In this document: positions 3,779 through 6,553 of the stretch, in pieces
How the letters are laid out: the number at the start of each line of letters is the position of its first letter
Position numbering within the stretch: the stretch's first letter is position 1
Origin: a virus
Taxonomy: Duplodnaviria > Heunggongvirae > Uroviricota > Caudoviricetes
Reading direction: 5' to 3' (one strand)
Virus record (IMG/VR): IMGVR_UViG_3300033069_001366
Coordinates: 111,108 to 122,180 of that record
Length of the DNA: 11,073 bases
The notes under the pieces: generated by a model
The model's database searches: none
What the model was told of the DNA's origin: nothing
What the model saw: only the letters and a program-made list of their open reading frames with translations
Program-made: the position numbers and the translations under genes

Positions 3779-4194
3779 AATAAGTCTTTTAATCTTTGTA
3801 ATACATCTTGAGAAGTATGTCCATCAAAAGGATATTTAGCTTTCTCTGTTTCAGGAATTTTAAAAAGGTCCCAATCTTCTGCTTTATAGTGGTTTGTAAT
3901 CTGTCCTGTAGGTAACATAGCTACAACGACAAACCACCCACCTCCAAAACACAATTCTCCATCATTATGTTTCCAAGATTTGTGAACATCATATTTACTT
4001 GTACTAGAATATTCCCCGTCCCTACCTATCTCTGTAGATCCTTGAGTAGACCATTCATTAAATAATGCAGCATTGTATAACTTTCTAAATTCGTAGAGTT
4101 CTTTAAAGGAGTGATAACCATCAGAGGTTAGTTCTTTTTCCTGAGGAGTTAAGAGAGAAACTGCTAATTGAGTCCCTTGTAAATTAGTTACCAT
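3775..4194 (-). CDS. Conserved phage protein, WDGH-type domain
   Basis: SDGYHSFKELY...KSWKH.DGE...GWF...LPTGQITNHY...WDLF...FDGHT pattern. The stop overlaps the phoH ATG. Confidence 0.75.
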   Translation of the reverse strand: MVTNLQGTQLAVSLLTPQEKELTSDGYHSFKELYEFRKLYNAALFNEWSTQGSTEIGRDGEYSSTSKYDVHKSWKHNDGELCFGGGWFVVVAMLPTGQITNHYKAEDWDLFKIPETEKAKYPFDGHTSQDVLQRLKDLL

Positions 4195-4214
4195 ACTATC
4201 TTGGTTTTGTGATA

Positions 4215-4222
4215 CAAAGGTA
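4215..4222 (-). promoter_or_regulatory. Bacteroidota-type -7 promoter box (TAnnTTTG) for the leftward operon
   Basis: Minus strand reads TACCTTTG, 20 nt upstream of the ATG at 4194, in the intergenic region. No clear -33 TTTG. The octamer also occurs by chance inside CDSs. Confidence 0.6.
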
Positions 4223-4354
4223 AATTAACTTTTTAAATTAAAAAAATTTTTATTTTTTTTTTGTTTTTATGCGTGATTTTGGGGAGGATATATAGATTTG
4301 GTGGCTTGGTCAAGTTAGAAGTCGCCTAGTACCCCCCATATCTAAACCTATGAA

Positions 4355-4367
4355 AATCAACAACTTG
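4355..4367 (+). promoter_or_regulatory. IHF-consensus site
   Basis: AATCAACAACTTG matches WATCAANNNNTTR exactly, in the divergent intergenic region. Confidence 0.35.
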
Positions 4368-4462
4368 GGTAGAAATCCAATCAACTATGAATAATTTGGA
4401 GAACAACACTGCCAATATTAAAGTGTGTTGACAAAACAAAAACAAAAACAAAATAAAACACT

Positions 4463-4672
4463 ATGATAAAAGCCGAAAGGCAGGAAACAAGAATTGACGA
4501 GGATGGTTTCGTTACCAACCTACCAAAAACATGTATATGCAGGGCGATTATAACATGTACATGGTATCAGGCAATAAAGCTTGATGGTAGGTGGATTGAG
4601 ACAAACAATAAAATCTCCTTAGCTAAGGCTAGGAGATTGCATTCCAGATTATTAAAGATTTGGAACCCTTAG
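4463..4672 (+). CDS. Hypothetical protein
   Basis: 69 aa ORF after an A-rich leader; first gene of the plus block. Confidence 0.6.
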   Translation: MIKAERQETRIDEDGFVTNLPKTCICRAIITCTWYQAIKLDGRWIETNNKISLAKARRLHSRLLKIWNP

Positions 4673-4678
4673 TCTTAA

Positions 4679-4703
4679 GACCTGAGTATGTCATTAAACT
4701 GCT
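4679..4703 (+). ncRNA. Possible compact H-type pseudoknot
   Basis: GAC(4679-81)/GTC(4690-92) stem; loop AGTA(4685-88) can pair with TGCT(4700-03) across an A-rich linker. Helices are short. Confidence 0.35.
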
Positions 4704-4759
4704 TCCTGTCCAGCACTGTGTGGTGCTGCTGATGATGACTCAAAAGAGTCGAAACAGGG
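4704..4759 (+). ncRNA. Type III hammerhead ribozyme
   Basis: GUC cleavage triplet (4708-10), stem I CAGCAC/GTGCTG, core CTGATGA (4729-35) plus an extra T, stem II GACTC-AAAA-GAGTC, GAAA (4751-54), stem III TCCTGT/ACAGGG. Confidence 0.92.
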
Positions 4760-4848
4760 TTCATTCCACTATAATAAGGATATTAATTTATAAACAAACT
4801 CAGTTTAGAGGTAGGAAACCTGAGTCTAATTAAAACCTCACAAGTATT

Positions 4849-5163
4849 ATGAGTATAAATTATTTTAATGTGTCAAACTTGAACTTAATTAAGTTTATAG
4901 AAGAACACAAAGACGCAACTATCAGGAGCTGTAGCTCACACTCAAACCCTGCGTATTACGCAGAGTATGAGAATAAAATTGTATTTCATTGGGGTAATGA
5001 CCCAAGATACACAATCTTGGGTTTGACCCAAGAAAATATAATTAAATTTCGGATGTTGTCATCCGAACTGCCAAGTAATTATTGGCAATTAACTGATATT
5101 CTTAAGGATATCAGAGAAGGAGTCTTCGTCTCAATAGAGGAGTCTATTGAAGAAGCATTGTAA
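4849..5163 (+). CDS. Hypothetical protein
   Basis: 104 aa ORF in the operon. Confidence 0.8.
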   Translation: MSINYFNVSNLNLIKFIEEHKDATIRSCSSHSNPAYYAEYENKIVFHWGNDPRYTILGLTQENIIKFRMLSSELPSNYWQLTDILKDIREGVFVSIEESIEEAL

Positions 5164-5165
5164 CA

Positions 5166-5213
5166 AATAAAGTCCAACTAGGTTGGCTGCATGTTCAAGT
5201 CATGCCTTTATTT
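5166..5213 (+). ncRNA. tRNA-like acceptor/T-arm element 1
   Basis: AATAAAG/CTTTATT stem, inner hairpin CCAAC-TAG-GTTGG, T-arm GCATG-TTCAAGT-CATGC, followed by T-CTA. Confidence 0.7.
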
Positions 5214-5251
5214 CTAAAGTAGAGACACTACTATAAAAACTGTATAAAGTT

Positions 5252-5473
5252 ATGGAAAGCATGACAAACTGGTCAGAAGACCAAATCAACCAAAGGTTGA
5301 AAGAGATTGACCAAGCTGAAATGGAAGCAGGTCGTCCTAAACCTCAATTCTTATGTAGAGATGACGATGATGGTGATGACTATCAGGAGAATCTTGAATT
5401 GGGATGGTATTTAGACGAATTACGTGATGAGCGTAAATTCCTTATTGATTTAAGGAATAAACTTCATCAATAG
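5252..5473 (+). CDS. Hypothetical acidic protein
   Basis: 73 aa ORF with a D/E-rich centre. Confidence 0.75.
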   Translation: MESMTNWSEDQINQRLKEIDQAEMEAGRPKPQFLCRDDDDGDDYQENLELGWYLDELRDERKFLIDLRNKLHQ

Positions 5474-5517
5474 CCAAGGTAGGAGTGTAGGTTGGGGTTC
5501 GATTCCCCAGCTTGGCT
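5473..5517 (+). ncRNA. tRNA-like acceptor/T-arm element 2
   Basis: GCCAAG/CTTGGC stem (extendable by A5472-T5517), 13-14 nt linker with two GG, T-arm TGGGG-TTCGATT-CCCCA, followed by T-CTA. Confidence 0.7.
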
Positions 5518-5556
5518 CTAAACTTCTGGGAGGAGTTATAAAACCCTATATATAAA

Positions 5557-6194: not shown

Positions 6195-6508
6195 AAAGAG
6201 TAAGAACAAACTGCATCGAAGCGATAGTAGATGCAAGGGGAAAGGTAGTTAACTATCGCATGACATTTCCTGTCCCAAGGGATTATGCTAATGAAATTCA
6301 TGAACGCTTCTCATGTGTTCAATCAAGGCTCAACTTTATAAGAGGTAGAGCTTATATTGAACTGTCTGACAAGGACTTCGAAGCATTATGGGCATACAAA
6401 TGCAGAATCCAGATGATTGTTGCTGATACTAAAATCAGAATACTTAGTATAAAAAGGGACAATGCCATGATGGAATACACACATTATCTCAAAACAATAC
6501 ACCAATAA
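6191..6508 (+). CDS. Hypothetical protein
   Basis: The start at 6191 (MKRVRTN) is preferred because of ATGA overlap with the upstream stop; 105 aa. Confidence 0.75.
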   Translation: MKRVRTNCIEAIVDARGKVVNYRMTFPVPRDYANEIHERFSCVQSRLNFIRGRAYIELSDKDFEALWAYKCRIQMIVADTKIRILSIKRDNAMMEYTHYLKTIHQ

Positions 6509-6553
6509 ACCAGCCTAAGGAGCTTAGTGAGGGTTCGAATCCCTCGCTGGTTC
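6508..6553 (+). ncRNA. tRNA-like acceptor/T-arm element 3
   Basis: AACCAGC/GCTGGTT stem, inner hairpin CTAAG-GAG-CTTAG, T-arm GAGGG-TTCGAAT-CCCTC. Confidence 0.72.

What the first reader, a model, noticed from the sequence alone, without database searches (positions are those of the whole stretch)
4704..4759. Type III hammerhead ribozyme with an extra core nucleotide
Seen: the complete catalytic core and three stems on the sense strand, predicting cleavage after C4710 (GUC), with one extra U (4736) between A9 and G10.1. Loop I (UGUGUG) and loop II (AAAA) are compatible with a loop-loop contact. Established: an extra nucleotide at this position is tolerated in natural hammerheads such as the chrysanthemum chlorotic mottle viroid plus strand. 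Inference: co-transcriptional cleavage separates the first ORF from the rest and gives the downstream RNA a 5'-OH hairpin end.
Basis: partly seen in the sequence, partly recalled or inferred. Interest (0 to 1): 0.8.

Follow-up and report, generated by a model that had tools for sequence, protein, structure and literature searches.

The report
Phage hammerhead ribozyme with extra U
A genuine self-cutting hammerhead RNA with one extra core base lies after the first small gene of a phage operon; this kind of element is known, but the extra-base form is a conserved subfamily that standard databases miss, and here it is fused to a widespread, apparently undescribed RNA pseudoknot.

Summary
Bases 4704-4759 (+) form a complete type III hammerhead: GUC cleavage site (cut after C4710), 7-bp stem I, core CUGAUGA, an extra U4736, a 5-bp stem II capped AAAA, then GAAA and a 6-bp stem III. 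Rfam does not detect it. A model built from 15 relatives scores it at 81.8 bits, and 145 distinct relatives in phage contigs keep all three stems through compensatory changes (96% of cells paired).

About one fifth of this phage family carries an extra U (15) or A (5) after A9, never C or G. The extra base usually comes with a 5-bp rather than 4-bp stem II. This matches published mutagenesis of the chrysanthemum viroid hammerhead. The cultured Tetrasphaera phage TJE1 has the same form.

Family members lie about 32 nt after a stop codon and 26 nt before the next start, directly behind a stable fold. In this window that fold is a 27-nt pseudoknot (4678-4704). The pseudoknot is itself found in hundreds of phages of many bacterial phyla and is supported by covariation.

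The most likely role is self-cleavage of a polycistronic message. Cleavage itself was not shown. This scan has noted similar stop-fold-hammerhead layouts before on other DNA. It is a known kind of element and of modest interest.

The parts
4463..4672 (+). Upstream 69-aa ORF, the first gene of the rightward block. It has no known family.
   Evidence: ORF list. No PHROG hit and no GenBank phage match. Its stop codon ends 6 nt before the pseudoknot's GAC, the modal spacing in 227 other pseudoknot loci. RNA-library contigs of two studies cover 4464-4633 and 4490-4636.
4678..4704 (+). H-type pseudoknot directly 5' of the ribozyme. S1 is 4679-4681 with 4690-4692. S2 is 4684-4687 with 4701-4704. An A-rich linker spans 4696-4699.
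   Evidence: Conserved motif GACCUGAGYANGUCNNNAAACUGCUC in more than 120 viral contigs and more than 120 bacterial genome contigs. The outer S1 pair covaries: 176/238 paired against 100 expected. S2 shows compensatory changes: G-C to A-U in 65/83 and A-U to G-C in 89/97.
4704..4709 (+). Hammerhead stem III, 5' strand, ending in U16.1 (4709).
   Evidence: Pairs with 4754-4759. Five of six stem III pairs covary in 145 relatives.
4710..4711 (+). Predicted self-cleavage site: C17 (4710) then C1.1 (4711). Expected products carry a 2',3'-cyclic phosphate on 4710 and a 5'-OH on 4711.
   Evidence: GUC triplet in the canonical position. Column GUC/GUA/AUC is conserved in family alignment A2. The chemistry is inferred from the hammerhead mechanism and was not measured.
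4711..4728 (+). Stem I (4711-4717 with 4722-4728) and loop 1 (UGUGUG, or GUGU closed by U-G).
   Evidence: All 7 pairs are kept, 6 of them with double changes, and 99.7% of cells are paired. The loop bases U, G and U are nearly invariant.
4729..4735 (+). Catalytic core strand C3 U4 G5 A6 U7 G8 A9.
   Evidence: Invariant in A1, and only N7 varies in A2.
4736..4736 (+). Extra unpaired U between A9 and G10.1.
   Evidence: Present in 32 of 145 distinct relatives, with A in 6 more. In the neutral sample the counts are 15 U and 5 A of 93 parsed. Precedent: CChMVd A10/U10.
4737..4750 (+). Stem II (5 bp, G10.1-C11.1 first) and loop 2 AAAA.
   Evidence: All 5 pairs covary across the family. A 5-bp stem II goes with the insertion: 14/20 against 0/73.
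4751..4759 (+). Core G12 A13 A14 A15.1 and the stem III 3' strand.
   Evidence: GAAA is invariant. It pairs with 4704-4709.
4849..5163 (+). Next ORF (104 aa, unknown), the first gene on the 3' cleavage product.
   Evidence: ORF list. No family or homologue found.

Best explanation
Bases 4704-4759 encode an active type III hammerhead ribozyme. It belongs to a large family that sits between co-directional genes of phages and some bacteria.

When the rightward transcript is made, the RNA folds into three helices around the conserved core. Loop 1 (UGUGUG) docks on loop 2 (AAAA). The extra U4736 bulges out between A9 and G10.1. The chain then cuts itself after C4710.

This splits the message into two products. 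The upstream piece carries the 69-aa first ORF and ends in the pseudoknot (4678-4704), about 6 nt of tail and a 2',3'-cyclic phosphate. The downstream piece starts with a 5'-OH buried in the stem I hairpin and carries ORF 4849 onward.

Both new ends are therefore structured and are poor substrates for end-dependent RNases, so the two parts of the operon can have separate stabilities. The other gaps of the same operon hold tRNA-like T-arm elements, which probably recruit host tRNA-processing enzymes for the same purpose.

Shown here: motif, family, covariation and position. Inferred: cleavage, end chemistry and the effect on stability.
For: - Structure: the complete core and three helices are at the stated coordinates.
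- Model score: 81.8 bits, E 2.9e-20, with the family model.
- Covariation: in 145 distinct relatives 96% of pair cells are paired, against 31-48% when partners are slid, and 16 of 18 pairs show double changes.
- Link to the curated family: canonical relatives align end to end with Rfam Hammerhead_3 at E 1.7e-7.
- Extra base: the extra-U/A class keeps an invariant core and its own stem II covariation. The U>A preference with no C or G matches published kinetics.
- A cultured phage, TJE1, has the same form at 68.8 bits.
- Position: family members sit a median 32 nt after a same-strand stop and 26 nt before the next start. Many contigs carry 2-5 copies one gene apart.
- Upstream fold: the 48 nt upstream fold to -15.8 kcal/mol on average, against -4.0 downstream.
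- Precedent: clustered prophage hammerheads cleave polycistronic RNAs in vitro and in E. coli (PMC3088659).
- T-arm elements in later gaps of this operon are visible at 5473-5520 and 6508-6552.
Against: - No RNA data show a cut at 4710/4711.
- The phage's own RNA-library contigs stop at 4633-4636 and none covers the ribozyme, so co-transcription of ORF1 and the ribozyme is not shown.
- The curated Rfam model does not recognise this sequence.
- The insertion lies next to the A9/G10.1 metal site (general knowledge of the hammerhead structure), so activity could be reduced.
- This copy lacks the strong hairpin that abuts most relatives. Its upstream 48 nt fold to only -5.1 kcal/mol, because the standard fold does not count the pseudoknot.
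- It is the only hammerhead in 122 kb.
- It lies 89 nt, not about 26 nt, before the next start codon.
Confidence: 0.68

Rival explanations
1. The ribozyme works at the 5' end of its own transcript. Transcription of ORF 4849 onward starts shortly upstream of 4704. The hammerhead then trims off a short leader, or the pseudoknot, and replaces the 5' triphosphate with a 5'-OH. It does not separate two cistrons.
For: RNA-library contigs from two studies cover 4464-4633 and 4490-4636 and both stop at the 4612-4638 hairpin. This is a weak hint that the upstream RNA ends before the ribozyme. A halovirus hammerhead variant lies 13 nt before the first gene of a polycistronic transcript, whose 5' end was mapped within three nucleotides of the cleavage site (PMC3088659).
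Against: No promoter-like site was found on the + strand between 4637 and 4703. The conserved element at 4678-4704 is an RNA pseudoknot with covariation, not a promoter. It is single-copy in the contig. In the family there is no room for a promoter between the upstream fold and the ribozyme. The hairpin at 4612-4638 lies inside the 69-aa ORF and has no U tract.
Confidence: 0.12
2. The main job is to make the 3' end of the upstream RNA. The pseudoknot or hairpin plus hammerhead acts as a terminator substitute that caps the upstream message. The downstream fragment is a by-product or is degraded.
For: Almost every family member is directly preceded, at 0-3 nt, by a very stable hairpin or, in 8 cases, by the pseudoknot. 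Nothing comparable follows it. The fold starts about 6 nt after the stop codon, like a terminator.
Against: Ribozymes are followed at a median 26 nt by the next gene on the same strand, and they come in series along operons. The downstream RNA must therefore be used. This reading overlaps with the best explanation rather than excluding it.
Confidence: 0.12
3. The motif is an inactive relic. The extra U next to the A9/G10.1 metal site has killed catalysis, and the sequence persists by descent or for another structural role.
For: Rfam's model rejects it. Most core insertions tested by Perreault et al. lowered activity.
Against: The insertion class has at least 38 distinct members with an invariant core, several different covarying stem II sequences and fully covarying stem I. 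That is purifying selection on a working fold. Only U or A is found at the extra position, the two bases reported as tolerated or beneficial.
Confidence: 0.05

Closest known systems
Clustered type III (and I/II) hammerheads in prophage and phage intergenic regions (Perreault et al. 2011, PMC3088659; review PMC6155905)
   Same: Same ribozyme class. Same position between small, mostly unknown co-directional genes, with ArdA-like and HNH genes among the neighbours. Several copies per operon in relatives. Same proposed role of cutting long phage transcripts into gene-length pieces. U-U at 10.1/11.1 also occurs in this family.
   Different: That study lists core insertions after A6, after A13 and near C3, but none after A9. 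This copy is single in its contig and is fused to a pseudoknot. Rfam's current model misses even the canonical members of this family at the gathering score.
Plus-strand hammerhead of chrysanthemum chlorotic mottle viroid, with extra A10 (De la Pena & Flores 2001, as summarised in PMC3705267)
   Same: One extra unpaired nucleotide at exactly the same place, between A9 and G10.1, in a type III hammerhead with a loop 1-loop 2 contact. U or A is acceptable there, C or G is not.
   Different: The viroid has A, kept for a second role in the viroid's global fold, and the U form was man-made. Here U is the natural, predominant base, in a DNA phage mRNA context. It is coupled to a stem II that is one pair longer.
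RNase III processing sites of phage T7 mRNAs (textbook knowledge, not tested here)
   Same: Both work by cutting a polycistronic phage message between genes, leaving a structured 3' end on the upstream product.
   Different: T7 relies on a host enzyme and long imperfect hairpins. Here the RNA cuts itself and needs no host factor, which would explain its spread across phyla.
tRNA punctuation and t-elements (organellar model), and the mini-tRNA elements noted in this same operon (scan note e1-5429296)
   Same: Discrete RNA folds placed at stop codons that mark where a long transcript is cut. In this operon the hammerhead fills the first gap and T-arm elements fill later gaps.
   Different: Those elements recruit RNase P or RNase Z. 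The hammerhead is autonomous.

Membership tests
Hammerhead ribozyme, type III (Rfam RF00008, clan CL00010) | Core strand C3 U4 G5 A6 N7 G8 A9 | tested here: met
   4729-4735 = CUGAUGA. Invariant in relatives except N7.
Hammerhead ribozyme, type III (Rfam RF00008, clan CL00010) | Core strand G12 A13 A14 with the A15.1-U16.1 pair, and cleavage triplet N-U-H | tested here: met
   4751-4754 = GAAA. A4754 pairs with U4709. The triplet is GUC at 4708-4710.
Hammerhead ribozyme, type III (Rfam RF00008, clan CL00010) | Three helices around the core, with stems I and II capped by loops and stem III open (type III topology), supported by covariation | tested here: met
   The minimum-energy fold equals the model. 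In 145 relatives 96.0% of cells are paired, 16/18 pairs show double changes, and slid controls give 31-48%.
Hammerhead ribozyme, type III (Rfam RF00008, clan CL00010) | Uninterrupted core (no inserted nucleotides) as in the strict consensus | tested here: not met
   Extra U4736. This is a consensus property rather than a requirement: the accepted CChMVd (+) hammerhead has an insertion at the same place and is active.
Hammerhead ribozyme, type III (Rfam RF00008, clan CL00010) | Score at or above the curated Rfam gathering threshold (48.5 bits) | tested here: not met
   No RF00008 hit for the window at E<=10. Insertion-free relatives reach 44.1, 42.2 and 32.5 bits with full-length alignments, E down to 1.7e-7. 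This is a detection threshold, not a biochemical criterion.
Hammerhead ribozyme, type III (Rfam RF00008, clan CL00010) | Loop 1-loop 2 tertiary contact (loop 1 UNmYN, loop 2 ending in an open A) | tested here: inconclusive
   Loop 1 UGUGUG fits U-N3-Y-N and loop 2 AAAA ends in A. These bases are conserved in the family, but no structure or mutant was tested.
Hammerhead ribozyme, type III (Rfam RF00008, clan CL00010) | Divalent-ion-assisted self-cleavage giving 2',3'-cyclic phosphate and 5'-OH ends | not testable with these tools
   The RNA runs available were contigs only and none of the phage's own contigs covers 4637-4848.

The most novel reading that the evidence does not exclude
The ribozyme is one half of a composite. 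The 27-nt pseudoknot at 4678-4704 may be a previously undescribed RNA class found across bacterial phyla and their phages. It is placed 6-7 nt after stop codons and often sits ahead of head scaffold and capsid genes. It would define or protect mRNA ends. In a minority of cases, including this one, it has recruited a hammerhead at 0-3 nt so that the end is made without any host enzyme. In addition, the extra U plus the extra stem II pair may be a coupled structural solution that keeps the loop-loop contact in register.
Probability: 0.3. Interest if true: 0.7.

Novelty: new member of a known kind. Interest (0 to 1): 0.42.

Why it matters
What phage and bacterial hammerheads do is still an open question (PMC6155905). 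This case adds three usable facts.

1. A whole phage family of type III hammerheads falls below the Rfam threshold, and its extra-nucleotide members are invisible to it. Surveys therefore undercount them.
2. Nature uses the U10 insertion that was only known as a laboratory improvement of a viroid ribozyme, and couples it to a longer stem II. This is a simple, testable structure-function rule.
3. The ribozymes always follow a stable fold that starts a few bases after a stop codon. This points to a specific job, making protected mRNA ends, that can be tested in cultured phages: Tetrasphaera phage TJE1 for the ribozyme and Staphylococcus phages such as B236 for the pseudoknot.

Tried and rejected
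- Rfam at gathering and E-value thresholds, on the window and on the whole contig, gave no Hammerhead_3 hit. On six related loci nothing reached the gathering score.
- DNA and protein BLAST of the window, the flanking region and the two flanking ORFs against GenBank phages found no close relative. The 421-aa protein has only distant hits at 24-26% identity.
- RNA evidence. One search found six RNA-library runs and four were laid. All are assembled contigs. None of the phage's own contigs covers 4637-4848, so neither a cut nor read-through at 4710/4711 can be judged. Two contigs from other organisms carry the pseudoknot plus hammerhead with different flanks, which shows presence only.
- I first read the conserved 26-nt block in front of the ribozyme as a phage RNA polymerase promoter. 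I rejected this because it is single-copy in the contig, occurs in hosts of many bacterial phyla and shows RNA-type compensatory changes.
- Resemblance of that block to the pistol ribozyme, the preQ1-I riboswitch, lambda boxB, type III antitoxin repeats, an oriT nick site and an anti-D-arm was considered from memory. None fitted or could be tested. One 32-nt tandem array exists.
- The T-arm-like hairpins in front of the L010 and L016 ribozymes are not tRNA genes by ARAGORN.
- A second hammerhead in the 122-kb contig was sought and none found.
- Literature searches by motif sequence and for RAGATH motifs found no description of the pseudoknot.

Full report
**What is there.** The window is the last 11 kb of a 122,180-bp viral contig. 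DNA runs place it in activated sludge and wastewater. Earlier notes of this scan call it crAss-like; I did not test that.

Genes left of about 4200 run on the minus strand, among them a PhoH-like gene. Genes from 4463 on run on the plus strand, and the GC skew changes sign there.

Read directly, 4704-4759 is a complete type III hammerhead:
- stem III: 4704-4709 with 4754-4759
- cleavage triplet GUC, ending at C4710
- stem I: 4711-4717 with 4722-4728
- core CUGAUGA: 4729-4735
- one unpaired U: 4736
- stem II: 4737-4741 with 4746-4750, capped AAAA
- GAAA: 4751-4754

The minimum-energy fold of the isolated stretch is exactly this structure.

**Is it more than chance?**
- Rfam does not report it at any threshold.
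- The exact 27-mer from the core through GAAAC occurs in 20 other viral contigs. There stem I differs completely yet always pairs.
- A broader pattern hit more than 119 contigs.
- A covariance model built from 15 distinct copies scores the window at 81.8 bits, and nothing else in the contig scores above 16.6.
- The same model found 171 hits in 100 loci.
- On 145 distinct sequences, 96.0% of pair cells are standard pairs and 16 of 18 pairs change on both sides. Sliding the partners drops pairing to 31-48%.
- Insertion-free relatives align end to end with Rfam Hammerhead_3 at 42-44 bits (E about 1e-7), just under the 48.5-bit threshold. This ties the family to the curated class.

**The extra nucleotide.** Counts in the family:

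| Sample | No insertion | Extra U | Extra A | U-U at 10.1/11.1 | A-A at 10.1/11.1 |
|---|---|---|---|---|---|
| All 145 distinct sequences | 72 | 32 | 6 | 10 | 7 |
| Neutral sample (not selected for the insertion), 93 parsed | 73 | 15 | 5 | counted under no insertion | counted under no insertion |

- No case has an extra C or G.
- In the neutral sample, 14 of the 20 insertion forms have a 5-bp stem II. None of the 73 others does (Fisher p = 3e-12, not corrected for relatedness).
- Inside the insertion class stem II still covaries (GACUC/GAGUC, GAUUC/GAAUC, GACCC/GGGUC, GGAAC/GUUCC and others). The class is therefore under selection and is not decaying.
- Published work on the chrysanthemum chlorotic mottle viroid plus hammerhead reports that an extra A here lowers the rate moderately, that C or G is very harmful, and that U raises the rate 3-4 fold (PMC3705267 summarising De la Pena & Flores 2001). 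I could not read the original paper.
- Perreault et al. 2011 list other natural core insertions and the U-U 10.1/11.1 variant, but none after A9.
- Loop 1 fits the UNmYN motif and loop 2 ends in A, the pattern of the common loop-loop contact (PMC2632901).
- The cultured Tetrasphaera phage TJE1 carries the same extra-U form, unannotated and antisense to an annotated ORF (68.8 bits).

**Context in the family.**
- Hits lie a median 32 nt after the stop of a same-strand ORF and 26 nt before the next start.
- Many contigs carry 2-5 copies spaced by one gene on one strand.
- Neighbouring genes are mostly unknown, with HNH endonucleases, ATPases and ArdA-like anti-restriction genes recurring. This is the picture drawn by Perreault et al. 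and by De la Pena's review.
- The 48 nt upstream of the ribozymes fold to -15.8 kcal/mol on average, against -4.0 downstream. A 9-12-bp hairpin, often with a T-loop-like UUCAAAG loop, ends 0-3 nt before stem III.

**Context in this window.**
- The ribozyme follows the 69-aa ORF 4463-4672 and precedes ORF 4849-5163.
- It has no abutting hairpin. It is directly preceded by a conserved 27-nt element, 4678-4704.
- I found this element because two RNA-library contigs from other organisms match only 4682-4759 and 4682-4776. The same 19-mer also turned up in unrelated viral contigs that have no ribozyme.

**The pseudoknot element.**
- The consensus N-GAC-CU-GAGY-AN-GUC-N'-NN-AAACU-GCUC occurs in more than 120 viral contigs and more than 120 genome contigs from many bacterial phyla.
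- It also occurs in 118 GenBank phages, 92 of them Staphylococcus phages.
- It is an H-type pseudoknot. The pair flanking GAC/GUC covaries: 176 of 238 paired against 100 +/- 7 expected.
- Targeted scans for changed loop bases returned the compensating change in the tail. G7 to A goes with C23 to U in 65 of 83. A6 to G goes with U24 to C in 89 of 97.
- It starts 6-7 nt after the upstream stop codon in the modal case. In the window the spacing is 6, which supports ORF 4463-4672 being real.
- Its downstream gene is most often a head scaffolding protein. In S. aureus phage B236 it lies between the head-morphogenesis gene and the scaffold and capsid genes.
- Only 8 of 448 instances are followed at 0-3 nt by a hammerhead.
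- It is absent from Rfam, and I found no paper that contains its sequence.
- Its function is unknown. Because the ribozyme would leave it on the 3' end of the upstream product, where other family members have a hairpin, a 3'-end cap or insulator role fits best.

**Mechanism and its limits.**
- The best reading is self-cleavage after C4710 of a polycistronic transcript, leaving both new ends structured.
- Later gaps of the same operon hold T-arm or mini-tRNA folds, which I could see at 5473-5520 and 6508-6552. The whole block looks punctuated for RNA processing.
- No RNA data show the cut.
- The phage's own RNA-library contigs, from two studies, cover 4464-4633 and 4490-4636 and stop at the 4612-4638 hairpin. 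That is only a weak hint of an RNA end upstream of the ribozyme. It keeps alive the rival reading that the ribozyme trims the 5' end of a separate transcript.
- No plus-strand promoter-like site was found in 4000-5300 by the simple scan. Such scans do not cover Bacteroidota-type promoters.

**Novelty.**
- Phage hammerheads, their clustering between genes and the tolerated insertion after A9 are all published. This scan has also recorded stop-hairpin or stop-pseudoknot-hammerhead layouts on other DNA.
- New here, as far as I could check:
  - the natural extra-U/A subfamily and its link to a 5-bp stem II
  - the failure of Rfam to see it
  - the fusion to the widespread pseudoknot
- I rate the given finding as a new member of a known kind, with moderate interest. 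The pseudoknot is the more novel lead.

Noticed in passing
window 4678-4704 (+); also L140-L264 (viral), L265-L384 (bacterial genomes), L620 (S. aureus phage B236): A 27-nt H-type pseudoknot (GACCUGAGYANGUC..AAACUGCUC) occurs in hundreds of phage and prophage loci across bacterial phyla. It starts 6-7 nt after a stop codon and is often ahead of head scaffold genes. Both stems are supported by compensatory changes. It is not in Rfam and no paper was found by its sequence. Function unknown.
   Followed up: partly
window 4464-4636: RNA-library contigs from two different studies (a wastewater metatranscriptome and an oligo-dT sludge library) cover 4464-4633 and 4490-4636. Both stop at the 4612-4638 hairpin, inside the 69-aa ORF. 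This is a weak hint of a discrete RNA 3' end, or of an abundant short RNA.
   Followed up: no
window 5473-5520 and 6508-6552 (+): Acceptor-plus-T-arm folds (GGGGUUCGAUUCCCC and GAGGGUUCGAAUCCCUC) sit in later intergenic gaps of the same operon.
   Followed up: partly
L622:386-447 (Tetrasphaera phage TJE1, HQ225832.1, minus strand near 12321-12382): A cultured phage carries an unannotated extra-U type III hammerhead preceded by a GC hairpin. It lies antisense to the annotated orf18, so that ORF call may be wrong.
   Followed up: partly
L004, L019, L020, L030, L035, L051, L092, L110 and others, directly 5' of their hammerheads: Many family ribozymes are preceded by a 10-12-bp hairpin of the form GUGUC-UUCAAAG-GACAC. 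Its loop looks like a tRNA T-loop. L010, L016 and L121 have GAGAGUUCAAACUCUC-type arms. ARAGORN calls no tRNA there.
   Followed up: partly
L284:1-110 on its reverse strand (Saprospiraceae MAG contig end): At least 3.5 tandem copies of the pseudoknot motif with a 32-nt period lie at a contig end. The layout is reminiscent of type III antitoxin RNA arrays, but it could be an assembly artefact.
   Followed up: no
window 4682-4688, 4798-4803, 4820-4826 (+): CCUGAGU occurs twice, once in the pseudoknot loop and again 60 nt after the ribozyme. ACUCAG between them can pair with either copy. UGAGU 4684-4688 could also pair with ACUCA 4738-4742 of stem II. Alternative folds around the ribozyme are possible.
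   Followed up: no
L065, L075, L120, L050, L121 (viral contigs): Four or five hammerheads of this family lie on one strand within 4-5 kb, one per gene gap. Copies within one contig mix canonical forms, U-U or A-A 10.1/11.1 forms and extra-U forms.
   Followed up: partly
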